Positions 8,574 through 62,030 of a DNA stretch of 64,000 nucleotides are shown piece after piece; the first letter of the stretch is position 1, and each line of letters opens with the position of its first letter. Below the pieces are notes generated by a model. The model had not been told where the DNA came from and searched no databases. It saw only the letters and a list, made by a program, of their open reading frames with translations. Made by a program: the position numbers and the translations under genes. The stretch comes from a virus. The DNA lies in the IMG/VR virus record IMGVR_UViG_2974606986_000001, positions 10,017 through 74,016 of that record, one strand, 5' to 3'.

Positions 8574-8605
8574 ATAGTAATTAAATAATGACTAGTCGTC
8601 AACCG
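8574..8605 (-). promoter_or_regulatory. Early sigma70-type promoter, conserved phage motif
   Basis: TTGACG(8602-8597)-17 bp-TACTAT(8579-8574). Confidence 0.8.
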
Positions 8606-20068: not shown

Positions 20069-20100
20069 ATAGTAATTAAACACGCATATGTCGTCAACCG
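20069..20100 (-). promoter_or_regulatory. Early sigma70-type promoter, conserved phage motif
   Basis: TTGACG(20097-20092)-17 bp-TACTAT(20074-20069). Confidence 0.8.
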
Positions 20101-21878: not shown

Positions 21879-22225
21879 CTGTCACACCCTCCACACTCGA
21901 CATCATCAACAACCTGAACGGCATACGTGATGAACAGAACGTAATTCATGTGTTGCCAGTAAGATTCAGTTACGGCCAGCTGGTAACCGTTATCGCCACG
22001 TTTAAAGATCACCCAGCCAGCAGCATGTAACCCTTCAAGGATCGCCACCTCTTCAGCGTTAACGCGGCGTGCGTCAATAGCGCCGCCATTCATGACGACA
22101 TATTGAATGTAAGGTAATAGACGCACCTCGCGCGTTGTCAGTTCCCGTTCGACCGCTGCCTGATAATAGGCCGCTGCGCGCGGATTAATGCTGCCACGCG
22201 GCGGAATAAAAATGGTTTTGCTCAT
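21866..22225 (-). CDS. Hypothetical protein, possible winged helix
   Basis: 119-aa ORF; ELRLLPYIQYVVMN-type phage motif. Confidence 0.65.
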   Translation of the reverse strand: MSKTIFIPPRGSINPRAAAYYQAAVERELTTREVRLLPYIQYVVMNGGAIDARRVNAEEVAILEGLHAAGWVIFKRGDNGYQLAVTESYWQHMNYVLFITYAVQVVDDVECGGCDRCQQ

Positions 22226-22938
22226 TGTGTAGATCCTTCACTGTTAGACTGGAATACGGCTTCCGCAAATCCGCGCGGGGTGGCGCTGCGGATCTTCTTC
22301 GTCCGGTCGGACCTGCCGCCGGTTTTTTTGTACTGCGTCGAATAACCAGCGTTGACCGCCACTGGTTTTTTCGGTGGCATAACAAAGCCATTGCCGGACC
22401 AGATCGCCGTTTTCTTCGGGTAAGCATCACGCGCTTTGATATGGTCAGGGAACAGCGGGTGGATGTCATCAGCTGGCAGATAGCCGCCATACTCCCACGG
22501 GTGGAAGTAATGGTCCGGCTTTCGCCATAGCGATGACAGCATGCTGACCGGGTTTTCGGCAATCCATGGACACTGCCATCGATTGCCCATTACTTCGACA
22601 AACTTCGCCCGGCCAGCAGCGATGTTCTGGCATTCAGGATCTAAAGCCAGTTTACCTTTAAACCAGCGTGACCCGGACACCGCCATGTCATCGCACGGCG
22701 GGAACCCGGCGACGAATGCAACATCACCATTACCGACGATAGCGACCAGCTTTTTCAGTGTGTCGAAATCATCTTCTATCTTCATGCCGATTTTGATTAT
22801 GCCGGGACGTTCATGATCGATGCTGACACCGTCAGGGTGTTTCATGTCGACCAGAAAGCAGGTGTAGCCAGCCTTGCGCCATGGGTCCGCAGCGAACCCG
22901 GTTTCGTCATACAAAAAAACAGCCTTACTGCGTTTCAT
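22222..22938 (-). CDS. DNA cytosine-C5 methyltransferase (short phage type)
   Basis: Motif I variant LYDETG..ADPW, catalytic GFPPC, ENPV motif VI. Confidence 0.8.
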   Translation of the reverse strand: MKRSKAVFLYDETGFAADPWRKAGYTCFLVDMKHPDGVSIDHERPGIIKIGMKIEDDFDTLKKLVAIVGNGDVAFVAGFPPCDDMAVSGSRWFKGKLALDPECQNIAAGRAKFVEVMGNRWQCPWIAENPVSMLSSLWRKPDHYFHPWEYGGYLPADDIHPLFPDHIKARDAYPKKTAIWSGNGFVMPPKKPVAVNAGYSTQYKKTGGRSDRTKKIRSATPRGFAEAVFQSNSEGSTQ

Positions 22939-23207
22939 GTCGCCTTCCTTTGCCTTAAGTGATAGCCCGTAATTTTCATGACTCTTCCTTCAGTGGTGCC
23001 GACATACCATCGTTCACATAGGGGCTGATCACGCCTTGAAACCAGTATTTCAACCGCCACACCACCTTCTTTTACATCGGTATTTCTGCGAAGAAAGGTA
23101 TACCGAACGCCATCTATCATGACCGCTTCGCCAACCTTCAGCGACATCACATTAACCAGTTTCAGGCGCGGGATGGTTCCCTGAAAGTTAGTCGGGTAAA
23201 GGATCAT
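22935..23207 (-). CDS. Hypothetical protein
   Basis: 90-aa ORF, 4-bp overlaps. Confidence 0.6.
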   Translation of the reverse strand: MILYPTNFQGTIPRLKLVNVMSLKVGEAVMIDGVRYTFLRRNTDVKEGGVAVEILVSRRDQPLCERWYVGTTEGRVMKITGYHLRQRKAT

Positions 23208-23497
23208 ATTGTGATGATCCCATACACATGGCGCAGGCTACCCAGGAAGCGGGTGGCCTCTTCAGCTGATTTGAAATACAGCGATTTGAAGTGATAGTCG
23301 CGCTCATACTGGCCGCGCTGGTAAATGAATTGCGCGTTGCCGCCGTCATCCAGGTAGCGGGTGAAATCGCGCGTGGCCGTGGGGGCCGATACGCCGAACA
23401 TGTCCTGGACGTCAGCACGGATCGCGGTGCCGCGCGTGCTGAACGTGGCATCGATAAACTTCTGTCGAATGATTTGGCTTTTGGTTGATTCGCTCAT
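23204..23497 (-). CDS. Stand-alone CapW/BrxR-type winged helix-turn-helix protein, no WYL domain
   Basis: QIIRQKFID...RGTAIRADVQDMFGVSAPTATRDFTRY...N...Y...FKSLY..SA...RFL matches the N-terminal wHTH of CapW/BrxR as I recall it. Confidence 0.7.
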   Translation of the reverse strand: MSESTKSQIIRQKFIDATFSTRGTAIRADVQDMFGVSAPTATRDFTRYLDDGGNAQFIYQRGQYERDYHFKSLYFKSAEEATRFLGSLRHVYGIITI

Positions 23498-23508
23498 AAG
23501 TCACCATT

Positions 23509-23530
23509 AAAAAAGCGCCCGCAGGCGCTT
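23509..23530 (-). terminator. Rho-independent terminator after tciB-like gene
   Basis: AAGCGCC-TGCG-GGCGCTT-TTTT on minus strand. Confidence 0.65.
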
Positions 23531-23539
23531 AGGGTTATG

Positions 23540-23704
23540 TCACCAGATCTTCTTCACCAGCGGCCAGGCTAAGAAAATCACCGCCGCCATGAACAGCCCG
23601 TCTGTAAAGGCGCTGATAACATAATAGATAGAATCGACAAACACTGATAACAACATCAGGATCGCTATTGCGACCACGCGCGCTTTATCAGAGATTTTAG
23701 CCAC
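23540..23704 (-). CDS. TciB-like two-helix membrane protein (54 aa), absent from ORF track
   Basis: MAKISDKARVVAIAILMLLSVFVDSIYYVISAFTDGLFMAAVIFLAWPLVKKIW; coupled to TerB-like gene as in P1 tciAB. Confidence 0.6.
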   Translation of the reverse strand: MAKISDKARVVAIAILMLLSVFVDSIYYVISAFTDGLFMAAVIFLAWPLVKKIW

Positions 23705-24149
23705 GGTATGCCACGCCCAGCGCGCCTGCGATTTCTTTCAGGACAGCGCGTTCTTCGTCGCTGATGCCGCCGTTGTCGGCTACGGTTTCAATACAGGCGA
23801 AAGCCAGTTCGGCATCTGCCGGTGAACTGCGCAGGTCGCCCAGCTCGCGGAGTGCGGACAGTTTGCCCAGCTTGTAACCGGCGCGAAGTTTTTTGCTGTA
23901 GCGGTCAACCAGGCCTGGAACGTCTGAAGCCCATGCGGTGAATGACTCTTCCGCCTCCAGCAGGTTCAGAAGTGACGTGATTTCATCATCGTCACAGGTG
24001 CCATCAGCAAATGAAACCAGCAGAGAACCAGAAATAACGGCCTCTACCAGATCTTTGGAAATGCGTTTTTCCAGGTTCTGTTCAGCGGTCGCTGCTGATT
24101 TTTTAATGTCAGCGGTTTTTGATGCAAACAGTTTGCCTAACAAGCCCAT
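23697..24149 (-). CDS. TerB-family protein (P1 TciA-like)
   Basis: DLVEAVISGSLLVSFADGTCDDDEI...ALRELGDL...VADNGGISDEERAVLKEIAGALG. Confidence 0.8.
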   Translation of the reverse strand: MGLLGKLFASKTADIKKSAATAEQNLEKRISKDLVEAVISGSLLVSFADGTCDDDEITSLLNLLEAEESFTAWASDVPGLVDRYSKKLRAGYKLGKLSALRELGDLRSSPADAELAFACIETVADNGGISDEERAVLKEIAGALGVAYRG

Positions 24150-24182: not shown

Positions 24183-24226
24183 GTGACGACAGGCGATACA
24201 GTAATCATAATGCTGTAGGGTGTCAA
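24183..24226. promoter_or_regulatory. Overlapping opposed promoter pair
   Basis: Minus: TTGACA(24226-24221)-17-TACTGT(24203-24198). Plus: GTGACG(24183-88)-17-CATAAT(24206-11). Confidence 0.6.
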
Positions 24227-61998: not shown

Positions 61999-62030
61999 CG
62001 GTTGACGACATGCGATAGTTTAATTACTAT
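61999..62030 (+). promoter_or_regulatory. Early sigma70-type promoter, full conserved motif
   Basis: CGG-TTGACG(62002-07)-AC...TAAT-TACTAT(62025-30), 17-bp spacer. Confidence 0.85.

What the first reader, a model, noticed from the sequence alone, without database searches (positions are those of the whole stretch)
23204..23497. WYL-less CapW/BrxR winged helix: candidate non-inducible repressor of host anti-phage operons
Seen: a 97-aa protein matching the CapW/BrxR N-terminal pattern (Q..R..FID...G...R.D....FG.S.P.A..D.T.Y....N...Y....FK..Y..SA...R.L..L) over its whole length, then stopping, with no WYL or dimerisation domain. It is encoded in an early accessory block between TciAB-like genes and a C5 methyltransferase. 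Established: CapW and BrxR repress CBASS, BREX and RM operons through this wHTH and are switched via the WYL domain. Inference: a sensor-less copy could occupy the same operators and keep defences off, or poison host dimers. This would be anti-defence at the level of transcription. Alternative: it is the phage's own early-gene regulator.
Basis: partly seen in the sequence, partly recalled or inferred. Interest (0 to 1): 0.85.

Follow-up and report, generated by a model that had tools for sequence, protein, structure and literature searches.

The report
Phage sensor-less BrxR/CapW winged-helix protein
Pantoea phage LIET2 encodes a 97-residue protein that is only the DNA-binding head of the bacterial BrxR/CapW defence-gene repressors, without their sensor and dimerisation domains; it belongs to an unstudied phage-borne group, and what DNA it binds is unknown.

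Summary
Window 23204-23497 (-) is an intact 97-codon gene of Pantoea phage vB_PagM_LIET2. A profile of it and its short relatives matches CapW and BrxR in the PDB at E 5.7e-15 to 5.2e-14. An AlphaFold model (pLDDT 90.8) has CapW/BrxR chains as its 15 best PDB matches. Residues needed for DNA binding in CapW and BrxR are kept. No WYL or WCX domain is encoded in the gene, its neighbours or the rest of the phage.

The gene is under purifying selection. Thirteen of the 14 short forms sampled make one well-supported clade apart from full-length cellular regulators. All members whose context I read lie in phages, prophages or phage-plasmids. A wider profile search found 196 short proteins.

The anti-defence reading is neither shown nor excluded, and I put it near 0.2. 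Published work says CapW/BrxR derepression is not needed for first-infection defence and that WYL repressors do not cross-talk. The protein also lacks the family's main dimer interface.

My preferred reading (0.4) is a ligand-blind regulator of the phage's own accessory, anti-restriction cassette. The wHTH-to-C5-methyltransferase linkage survives at 55% identity, and a DNA methyltransferase lies within 2.5 kb in 4 of 12 lineages. The same idea was noted, unchecked, on other phage DNA earlier in this scan.

The parts
23204..23497 (-). Gene for a 97-aa stand-alone BrxR/CapW-type winged helix (helices 6-22, 27-34, 38-50; wing strands 55-58 and 63-66; C-terminal helix 78-92). No WYL or WCX domain.
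23513..23530 (-). Intrinsic-terminator-like hairpin (7-bp stem, T6) 15 nt upstream of the wHTH start codon. It closes the TciA/TciB cassette, so the wHTH gene must be read by read-through or from an unseen internal promoter.
   Evidence: fold -17.6 kcal/mol, z -3.0
23540..23704 (-). TciB-like small membrane protein (DUF3927, phrog_1470)
23697..24149 (-). TerB/TciA-like protein (PF05099, phrog_632)
24198..24226 (-). Sigma-70-type promoter candidate for the leftward unit (TTGACA, 17 nt, TACTGT). Its -10 region resembles the phage's repeated promoter. It overlaps a rightward promoter candidate at 24183-24211 (+).
   Evidence: read from the sequence; rightward site; promoter family
22935..23207 (-). 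90-aa ORF of unknown function. Its start overlaps the wHTH stop (ATGA) and its stop overlaps the methyltransferase start. In the 55%-identical relative a non-homologous 102-aa ORF takes its place.
22222..22938 (-). Short C5 (Dcm-like) DNA methyltransferase (phrog_757, E 1.6e-70). It is linked to the wHTH gene in LIET2, Nafs113 and the metagenomic relative L003 (59% identity).

Best explanation
The gene encodes a ligand-blind, stand-alone BrxR/CapW-type winged-helix DNA-binding protein. It belongs to a phage-borne clade that has lacked the WYL sensor and WCX domain for a long time.

I think it most likely acts as a constitutive, sequence-specific transcription regulator of the phage's own accessory, anti-restriction cassette. 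That cassette is the leftward unit carrying the wHTH gene, a variable small gene and a C5 methyltransferase. The role would resemble that of Aca repressors of anti-CRISPR operons, or of controller proteins of restriction-modification systems.

Shown here: fold, homology, kept DNA-contact residues, absent sensor, purifying selection, phage-only clade, and gene linkage. Inferred: that it binds DNA, that it binds as more than a monomer, and that its target lies in the phage.
For: Identity:
- Profile against PDB sequences gives CapW/BrxR at E 5.7e-15 to 5.2e-14.
- The 15 best Foldseek matches are all CapW/BrxR.
- R27, S37, T40 and T42 stand at the positions of Sm CapW R32, S42, Q45 and S47, which were mutated to abolish DNA binding. 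R11 stands at the position of the DNA-contacting R11 of Acinetobacter BrxR. R11 is invariant and R27 nearly so in the short family.

Selection: 10 synonymous against 4 non-synonymous codon differences versus Nafs113, and 12 against 2 for Nafs113 versus L058.

Phage clade:
- 13 of 14 short forms make one clade (support 100/96) apart from 29 full-length proteins.
- Members lie in a virulent myovirus, a jumbo Yersinia phage, a 180-kb Salmonella phage, lambdoid prophages and phage-plasmids.

Linkage:
- The wHTH-to-small-ORF-to-C5-methyltransferase order, with overlapping stops and starts, is kept in a relative at 55%/59% identity, although the middle ORF is unrelated.
- In lambdoid prophages the wHTH gene overlaps the end of a Dam gene in 5 of 7 loci.
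- A methyltransferase lies within 2.5 kb in 4 of 12 sampled lineages, from three methyltransferase families.

Operator position: in relative L003 the gene is the first one behind a TTGACA-17-TACATT promoter. A perfect 10-bp palindrome (TTGACGTCAA) lies between the -10 and the ribosome site, where an autoregulatory operator would sit.

Family precedent: full-length members are repressors of the operon next to them (PMC9122588, PMC9122601, PMC9122589).
Against: - No operator is demonstrated. The L003 palindrome is not conserved in LIET2.
- In LIET2 a TciA/TciB cassette and a terminator lie between the promoter and the wHTH gene.
- No palindrome with exact arms of 6-7 bases recurs three or more times in the 64-kb window.
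- In lambdoid members the gene sits in mid-operon with no promoter of its own.
- 8 of 12 sampled lineages show no nearby methyltransferase, and the adjacency was not tested against a control set of phage genes.
- The protein lacks the WYL/WCX domain-swapped interface through which the family dimerises (PMC9122588).
- No RNA data exist for this phage.
Confidence: 0.4

Rival explanations
1. Anti-defence by operator mimicry. The sensor-less head binds operators of host BrxR/CapW-type repressors. It keeps BREX, CBASS, RM or defence-island operons repressed when the host regulator is released by ssDNA, and so blocks the induced boost of immunity.
For: - True homology with kept DNA-contact residues and lost sensor.
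- The clade is restricted to phages and lies in accessory blocks with anti-restriction methyltransferases.
- In Arash-like large phages it lies in the same gene block as Acb1, 4.5 kb away.
- Full-length homologues occur in 115 of 401 sampled genomes of the host's order and in 3 of 75 Pantoea species genomes.
- The 2026 preprint shows that WYL-dependent priming raises defence levels enough to overwhelm a phage inhibitor, so blocking the priming would help phage kin (10.1101/2025.11.13.688357).
Against: - Derepression is not needed for first-infection defence (PMC9122588 abstract; preprint abstract).
- WYL repressors act without cross-talk, so operator specificity is narrow.
- The short forms are a deep separate clade, not mimics of particular host regulators.
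- The LIET2 residues at CapW's base-contact positions differ from all three Pantoea full-length proteins.
- There is no dimerisation module for a roughly 20-bp palindrome.
- The two Pantoea genomes that carry short copies on a prophage or phage-plasmid have no full-length homologue at E<=1e-5.
Confidence: 0.2
2. Temporal regulator of phage transcription. It binds the extended, nearly invariant -35 region (CGGTTGACGAC) of the phage's repeated promoters, or the overlapping divergent promoters at 24183-24226. There it shuts off early or leftward transcription or switches to the rightward structural genes.
For: - 12 motif sites against 1.5 expected, with conservation beyond what sigma-70 needs (CGG before and AC after the -35; TTAATTACTATA around the -10).
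- The leftward and rightward promoter candidates overlap, so occupancy of one excludes the other.
- In L003 the palindrome next to the wHTH gene also forms the -35 of the opposite promoter.
Against: - The motif is not palindromic.
- Nothing links this protein rather than the phage's other small DNA-binding proteins to it.
- Relatives in lambdoid prophages and phage-plasmids already have full regulatory circuits and do not need such a factor.
- The gene is not itself behind a canonical copy of the motif.
Confidence: 0.15
3. DNA-binding partner of the methyltransferase rather than a transcription factor. It would recruit, restrict or time methylation, or shield particular sites.
For: - Translational coupling with the methyltransferase unit in LIET2 and L003, and a 4-nt overlap with Dam in lambdoid prophages.
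- Unchecked notes from this scan report a different small winged-helix gene travelling with M.EcoGII-type methylases in E. coli prophages.
Against: - Most sampled lineages lack an adjacent methyltransferase.
- The methyltransferases are of unrelated families.
- I know of no such role for this fold.
Confidence: 0.1
4. Dominant-negative 'poison' subunit that forms inactive heterodimers with host BrxR/CapW.
For: The C-terminal helix (78-92) aligns with the start of the inter-domain helices that help form the dimer core in BrxR (PMC9122589).
Against: - The main interface (domain-swapped linker, WYL and WCX) is absent (PMC9122588).
- Inactivating the host repressor would switch defence on, which is the opposite of a benefit to the phage.
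Confidence: 0.03

Closest known systems
CapW (S. maltophilia 7TB6, P. aeruginosa 7TB5, R. leguminosarum 9C5G), repressor of CBASS operons
   Same: - Same winged-helix fold (TMq 0.76-0.80, 28-30% identity over 92-95 columns).
- The profile match covers residues 7-87.
- The DNA-binding arginine (CapW R32 = R27 here) and the start of the recognition helix (SAPQ in CapW, SAPT here) are kept.
   Different: - It ends at residue 97 where CapW goes on for another 200 residues, so there is no WYL ssDNA sensor and no WCX domain.
- It lacks the domain-swapped dimer.
- It is encoded by a virulent phage, not next to a defence operon.
BrxR (E. fergusonii 7QFZ; Acinetobacter 7T8K/7T8L), regulator of BREX and defence islands
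   Same: - Same fold (rmsd 1.7-2.6 A over 82-88 columns).
- R11 is conserved at the DNA-contacting R11 of Acinetobacter BrxR.
- There is a helix after the wing, where BrxR's dimer-core helices begin.
   Different: - The base-reading SRQQ motif of Acinetobacter BrxR is SAPT here.
- No WYL or WCX domain.
- No BREX genes nearby.
Aca (anti-CRISPR-associated) repressors
   Same: A small stand-alone HTH protein encoded inside a phage accessory operon beside variable small genes and counter-defence genes. It is proposed to feed back on that operon's promoter (my knowledge of the Aca literature, not tested here).
   Different: - Different HTH families.
- No anti-CRISPR is identified here.
- No operator is shown.
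Controller (C) proteins of restriction-modification systems
   Same: A small DNA-binding protein co-transcribed with a DNA methyltransferase.
   Different: - C proteins have Xre-type HTH folds and act on C-boxes to time a nuclease.
- Here the fold is a BrxR-type winged helix and the methyltransferase is an orphan.
Other stand-alone PF26109 proteins in databases
   Same: - Same one-domain architecture.
- ESM Atlas clusters of 94-105 aa with 90, 131 and 267 members.
- 196 short proteins in the profile search.
- UniRef names one of them 'DNA-binding transcriptional repressor CapW'.
   Different: - These are automatic labels only.
- I found no paper that describes or tests a WYL-less form.

Membership tests
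BrxR/CapW wHTH-WYL-WCX regulators | N-terminal BrxR-type winged helix (PF26109) | tested here: met
   Profile against PDB E 5.7e-15. Foldseek top 15 are all CapW/BrxR. Relatives carry PF26109.
BrxR/CapW wHTH-WYL-WCX regulators | Central WYL ligand (ssDNA) sensor domain | tested here: not met
   The protein ends at residue 97. PF13280 finds nothing in the whole phage at E<=1. Neighbouring ORFs are not a split WYL.
BrxR/CapW wHTH-WYL-WCX regulators | C-terminal WCX / BrxR_CTD domain and domain-swapped homodimer | tested here: not met
   No residues are left for it. hhalign of neighbouring ORFs against 32 full-length proteins gives probability <=1.1%. Self-association of the short protein could not be tested.
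BrxR/CapW wHTH-WYL-WCX regulators | Binds a palindrome in the promoter of the adjacent operon and represses it | not testable with these tools
   There are only hints: a 10-bp palindrome behind the promoter in relative L003, and no recurrent palindrome in LIET2.
BrxR/CapW wHTH-WYL-WCX regulators | Encoded next to a bacterial defence system or island | tested here: not met
   The gene lies in a virulent phage between TciA/TciB-like genes and an orphan C5 methyltransferase.
Stand-alone WHD_BrxR (PF26109-only) proteins of phages | Single domain of 72-126 aa, carried by a phage, prophage or phage-plasmid, clustering apart from full-length forms | tested here: met
   Tree: 13 of 14 short forms in one clade, support 100/96. 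Contexts.
Aca-type autorepressors of anti-defence operons | Small HTH gene inside an operon with counter-defence genes | tested here: inconclusive
   It is coupled to an orphan C5 methyltransferase and a variable small ORF. No proven anti-defence gene is present.
Aca-type autorepressors of anti-defence operons | Binds inverted repeats in its own operon's promoter | not testable with these tools
   Needs EMSA or a reporter assay.
RM controller (C) proteins | Xre-type HTH fold and a C-box operator upstream | tested here: not met
   The fold is a BrxR-type winged helix. There is no Pfam HTH_3 match.

The most novel reading that the evidence does not exclude
The phage-borne WYL-less clade is a transcription-level counter-defence. 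As an uninducible copy of the BrxR/CapW DNA-binding head, it holds host defence operons in the repressed state after the host sensor has fired. This blocks the 'primed immunity' that would otherwise overwhelm phage inhibitors in later infections.
Probability: 0.17. Interest if true: 0.85.

Novelty: new variant of a known kind. Interest (0 to 1): 0.55.

Why it matters
BrxR/CapW-type repressors control many bacterial defence systems. How phages deal with that layer of control is unknown.

This work shows that phages of several kinds keep a conserved, sensor-less version of exactly that DNA-binding head. The kinds are virulent, jumbo, lambdoid and phage-plasmid. The gene often lies beside anti-restriction methyltransferases.

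If it acts on host operators, it would be the first counter-defence that works by repressing immunity genes. If it regulates phage cassettes, it would be a new marker gene for finding phage counter-defence cargo, as Aca genes are for anti-CRISPRs.

Either outcome can be tested with one purified 97-residue protein and one phage knockout.

Tried and rejected
**Family and homology searches that gave nothing or little**
- Pfam, PHROGs and PADLOC scans of the protein gave nothing, and NCBIfam only a far sub-threshold MntR hit (E 0.13). The local Pfam copy lacks PF26109, so the Pfam blank says nothing.
- The single-sequence AF2 model was poor (pLDDT 48). It was replaced by the alignment-based model.
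- The representative search returned long multi-stretch hits. P0004 is a repeat protein; P0003, P0007, P0009 and P0010 were not inspected. I set all five aside as spurious.
- BFVD holds no other viral protein of this fold at E<=1e-3.

**Searches for more relatives**
- It found only four lambdoid loci with P0012.
- It found one near-identical metagenome contig. Footprinting of the promoter was therefore not possible.

**Ideas tested and rejected**
- A split gene, with the 90-aa downstream ORF or other neighbours acting as a detached WYL/WCX domain, is rejected. The Atlas gave only sub-threshold leads for the 90-aa ORF.
- A recent capture from a host BrxR/CapW is rejected for LIET2, because the short forms make a deep clade of their own. 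The 75-aa protein of Stenotrophomonas phage Sonora is the exception and groups with CapW-like full-length proteins.
- A recurrent palindromic operator in the phage was not found with exact 6-7-base arms.

**Tools and data that were not available**
- No RNA runs hold the phage, so timing and terminator read-through stay unknown.

**Literature**
- Four searches and three papers read for this point gave no description of WYL-less phage forms.

Full report
**What is there.** The window is Pantoea phage vB_PagM_LIET2. The protein is 100% identical to a LIET2 entry in BFVD, and the region is 95% identical to phage Nafs113. The genome record is 74.7 kb. The ORF at 23204-23497 (-) is 97 codons long, with an ATG start and a GGTGA ribosome site. 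It is annotated as hypothetical in Nafs113 (ORF74). Against Nafs113 it differs at 10 synonymous and 4 non-synonymous codons; Nafs113 against metagenomic copy L058 differs at 12 and 2. So it is a real gene under purifying selection.

**Homology.**
- The lone sequence already ranks CapW (7tb6, E 1.2e-3; 7tb5) and BrxR (7qfz) first among all PDB sequences, aligned over residues 9-91.
- Exhaustive and word-based searches gave a handful of short relatives of 97-110 aa.
- A profile of 12 of them matches CapW/BrxR at E 5.7e-15 to 5.2e-14.
- With that alignment AlphaFold gives pLDDT 90.8. The model has three helices, a two-strand wing and a C-terminal helix.
- The 15 best Foldseek PDB matches are all CapW or BrxR chains, with TMq 0.65-0.80. 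Other winged helices start at TMq 0.53 or below.
- The ESM Atlas agrees by features and by structure.
- The local Pfam copy lacks PF26109, which explains the empty scan. Relatives carry PF26109 in precomputed tables.

**DNA-binding residues.** The HMMER alignments can be read against the papers.
- Sm CapW R32, S42, Q45 and S47, which were mutated to disrupt DNA binding (PMC9122588), correspond to R27, S37, T40 and T42 here.
- The DNA-contacting R11 of Acinetobacter BrxR (PMC9122589) corresponds to R11.
- R11 is invariant and R27 nearly so in the short family.
- BrxR's base-reading SRQQ is SAPT here, which is closer to CapW's SAPQ.

**Sensor and dimer domains are absent.** The protein stops one helix after the wing. 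Pfam WYL finds nothing in the whole phage at E<=1, although the same search rings in 9 control genomes. There is only one WHD copy. Neither the 90-aa downstream ORF nor the neighbours of relatives match the WYL/WCX part of 32 full-length proteins. The hhalign probability is 1.1% or less, against 96% for the WHD control.

**A phage clade.**
- Only 4 of 50,697 phage records hold a relative: Nafs113, Yersinia jumbo phage fHe-Yen9-02, Salmonella phage Arash and Stenotrophomonas phage Sonora. All four proteins are short.
- Other members sit in lambdoid prophage nin regions, in phage-plasmids with StbA partition genes, and in a Pantoea prophage next to its integrase.
- In 401 genomes of the host's order, 115 have a match. 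All but six matches lie in open frames of 219 aa or more, that is, full-length regulators.
- In Pantoea, 5 of 75 species genomes match: two short mobile-element copies and three full-length proteins.
- In a tree of the WHD core, 13 of 14 short forms make one clade (100/96) apart from 29 full-length proteins. Only Sonora's 75-aa protein groups with CapW-like proteins. The alignment has few columns, so only this main split should be trusted.
- A wider profile found 196 proteins of 72-126 aa with PF26109 only.
- All seven further contexts look phage-like.

**Surroundings in LIET2.** A sigma-70-type promoter candidate (TTGACA-17-TACTGT, 24226-24198, minus strand) resembles the phage's repeated promoter. 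That repeated promoter is CGGTTGACGAC plus TTAATTACTATA, with 12 sites against 1.5 expected. The candidate overlaps a rightward promoter candidate that faces the structural genes. Leftward from it come, in order:
- a TerB/TciA-like gene and a TciB-like gene;
- a good terminator hairpin 15 nt before the wHTH start;
- the wHTH gene, a 90-aa ORF and a short C5 methyltransferase with overlapping stops and starts;
- three unknown genes, the spanins and another terminator.

**Surroundings in relative L003.** In the only diverged relative of this subtype (L003, 55% identity), the TciA/TciB cassette is missing. The wHTH gene is the first one behind the promoter, and a perfect TTGACGTCAA palindrome lies between the -10 and the ribosome site. 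The methyltransferase is conserved at 59% identity, but the ORF in between is unrelated.

**Methyltransferase and counter-defence neighbours.**
- In lambdoid prophages the wHTH gene overlaps the end of a Dam gene in 5 of 7 loci.
- One phage-plasmid has a DNA methylase 1.6 kb upstream.
- One metagenomic phage has a C5 methylase 2.3 kb downstream.
- So a methyltransferase lies within 2.5 kb in 4 of 12 sampled lineages, from three families. I could not run a control for this.
- In Arash-like phages the gene lies in the same block as Acb1, 4.5 kb away, beside a NUDIX gene.

**How it most likely works.** The parts that are shown point to a sequence-specific DNA-binding protein that cannot respond to the family's ligand. 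For the target I favour the phage's own accessory cassette, an Aca-like or controller-like feedback (0.4). The reasons are the conserved coupling to the methyltransferase unit, the operator-like palindrome in L003, and the family habit of repressing the adjacent operon. The weaknesses are:
- no operator is conserved in LIET2;
- a terminator lies in front of the gene;
- no palindrome recurs three or more times in the window;

It remains possible, and it is the exciting case. Against it:
- Derepression by CapW or BrxR is reported as unnecessary for first-infection defence (PMC9122588; 10.1101/2025.11.13.688357).
- WYL regulators act without cross-talk.
- The phage clade is old and separate.
- Its base-contact residues match none of the three Pantoea regulators.
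- The two Pantoea genomes with short copies have no full-length homologue.

The same preprint shows that primed, derepressed BREX overwhelms a phage inhibitor. That gives a sensible population-level benefit to blocking derepression. The dominant-negative version is unlikely, because the interface is absent and the effect would switch defence on.

**Novelty.** Databases label such proteins automatically. In the held literature I found no description or test of WYL-less, phage-borne BrxR/CapW heads. The scan's own notes show the same idea raised, unchecked, on three other phage genomes. They also record two checked cases of small stand-alone heads in E. coli islands. I file this as a new variant of a known kind, of moderate interest. 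One protein and one knockout would settle its target.

Noticed in passing
window, 12 sites (e.g. 498-508, 1699-1709, 8595-8605, 20090-20100, 61999-62009): A repeated phage promoter. It has an A-rich upstream stretch, an invariant CGGTTGACGAC (-35 TTGACG), then TTAATTACTATA around the -10. There are 12 sites against 1.5 expected. Conservation goes beyond what sigma-70 needs and may mark a regulator site.
   Followed up: partly
window 24183-24226: The leftward (TTGACA-17-TACTGT) and rightward (GTGACG-17-CATAAT) promoter candidates overlap back to back between the accessory block and the structural genes. RNA polymerase could hold only one at a time, so this is a possible switch. Relative L003 has the same layout with a perfect TTGACGTCAA palindrome (L003 about 1388-1397).
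   Followed up: partly
window 23513-24149 (-): The TerB/TciA-like and TciB-like genes, with their own terminator, look like a moron inserted between the promoter and the wHTH gene. The cassette is absent from relative L003.
   Followed up: partly
window 22935-23207 (-); L003 1703-2011: The small ORF between the wHTH gene and the methyltransferase is replaced by an unrelated ORF in the relative (90 aa against 102 aa, no BLAST match). This is a variable cargo slot and a candidate counter-defence gene. It has no family match.
   Followed up: partly
L059 46-501 and L060 69-524 (Arash-like large phages): An Acb1 (anti-CBASS phosphodiesterase, PF23474) gene lies in the same same-strand block, 4.5 kb upstream of the short WHD_BrxR gene. 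A NUDIX gene is adjacent and a radical-SAM gene lies downstream.
   Followed up: no
L018 2995-3324 (Salmonella phage Arash gp136): The gene is annotated 'WYL domain-containing protein', but it is only 109 aa and matches just the winged-helix head. The GenBank product name is misleading.
   Followed up: partly
proteins P0029-P0136: Many metagenomic PF26109-only proteins are about 73 aa, that is, the wHTH core without the C-terminal helix, like Sonora gp088. Some sit on contigs of 30-80 kb. They may be a second, independent class of sensor-less heads related to CapW.
   Followed up: no
L011, L012, L013, L015, L016: In lambdoid prophage nin regions the Dam (PF05869) gene and the 110-aa WHD_BrxR gene overlap by 4 nt. 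Two related loci (L014, L017) have another gene in Dam's place.
   Followed up: partly
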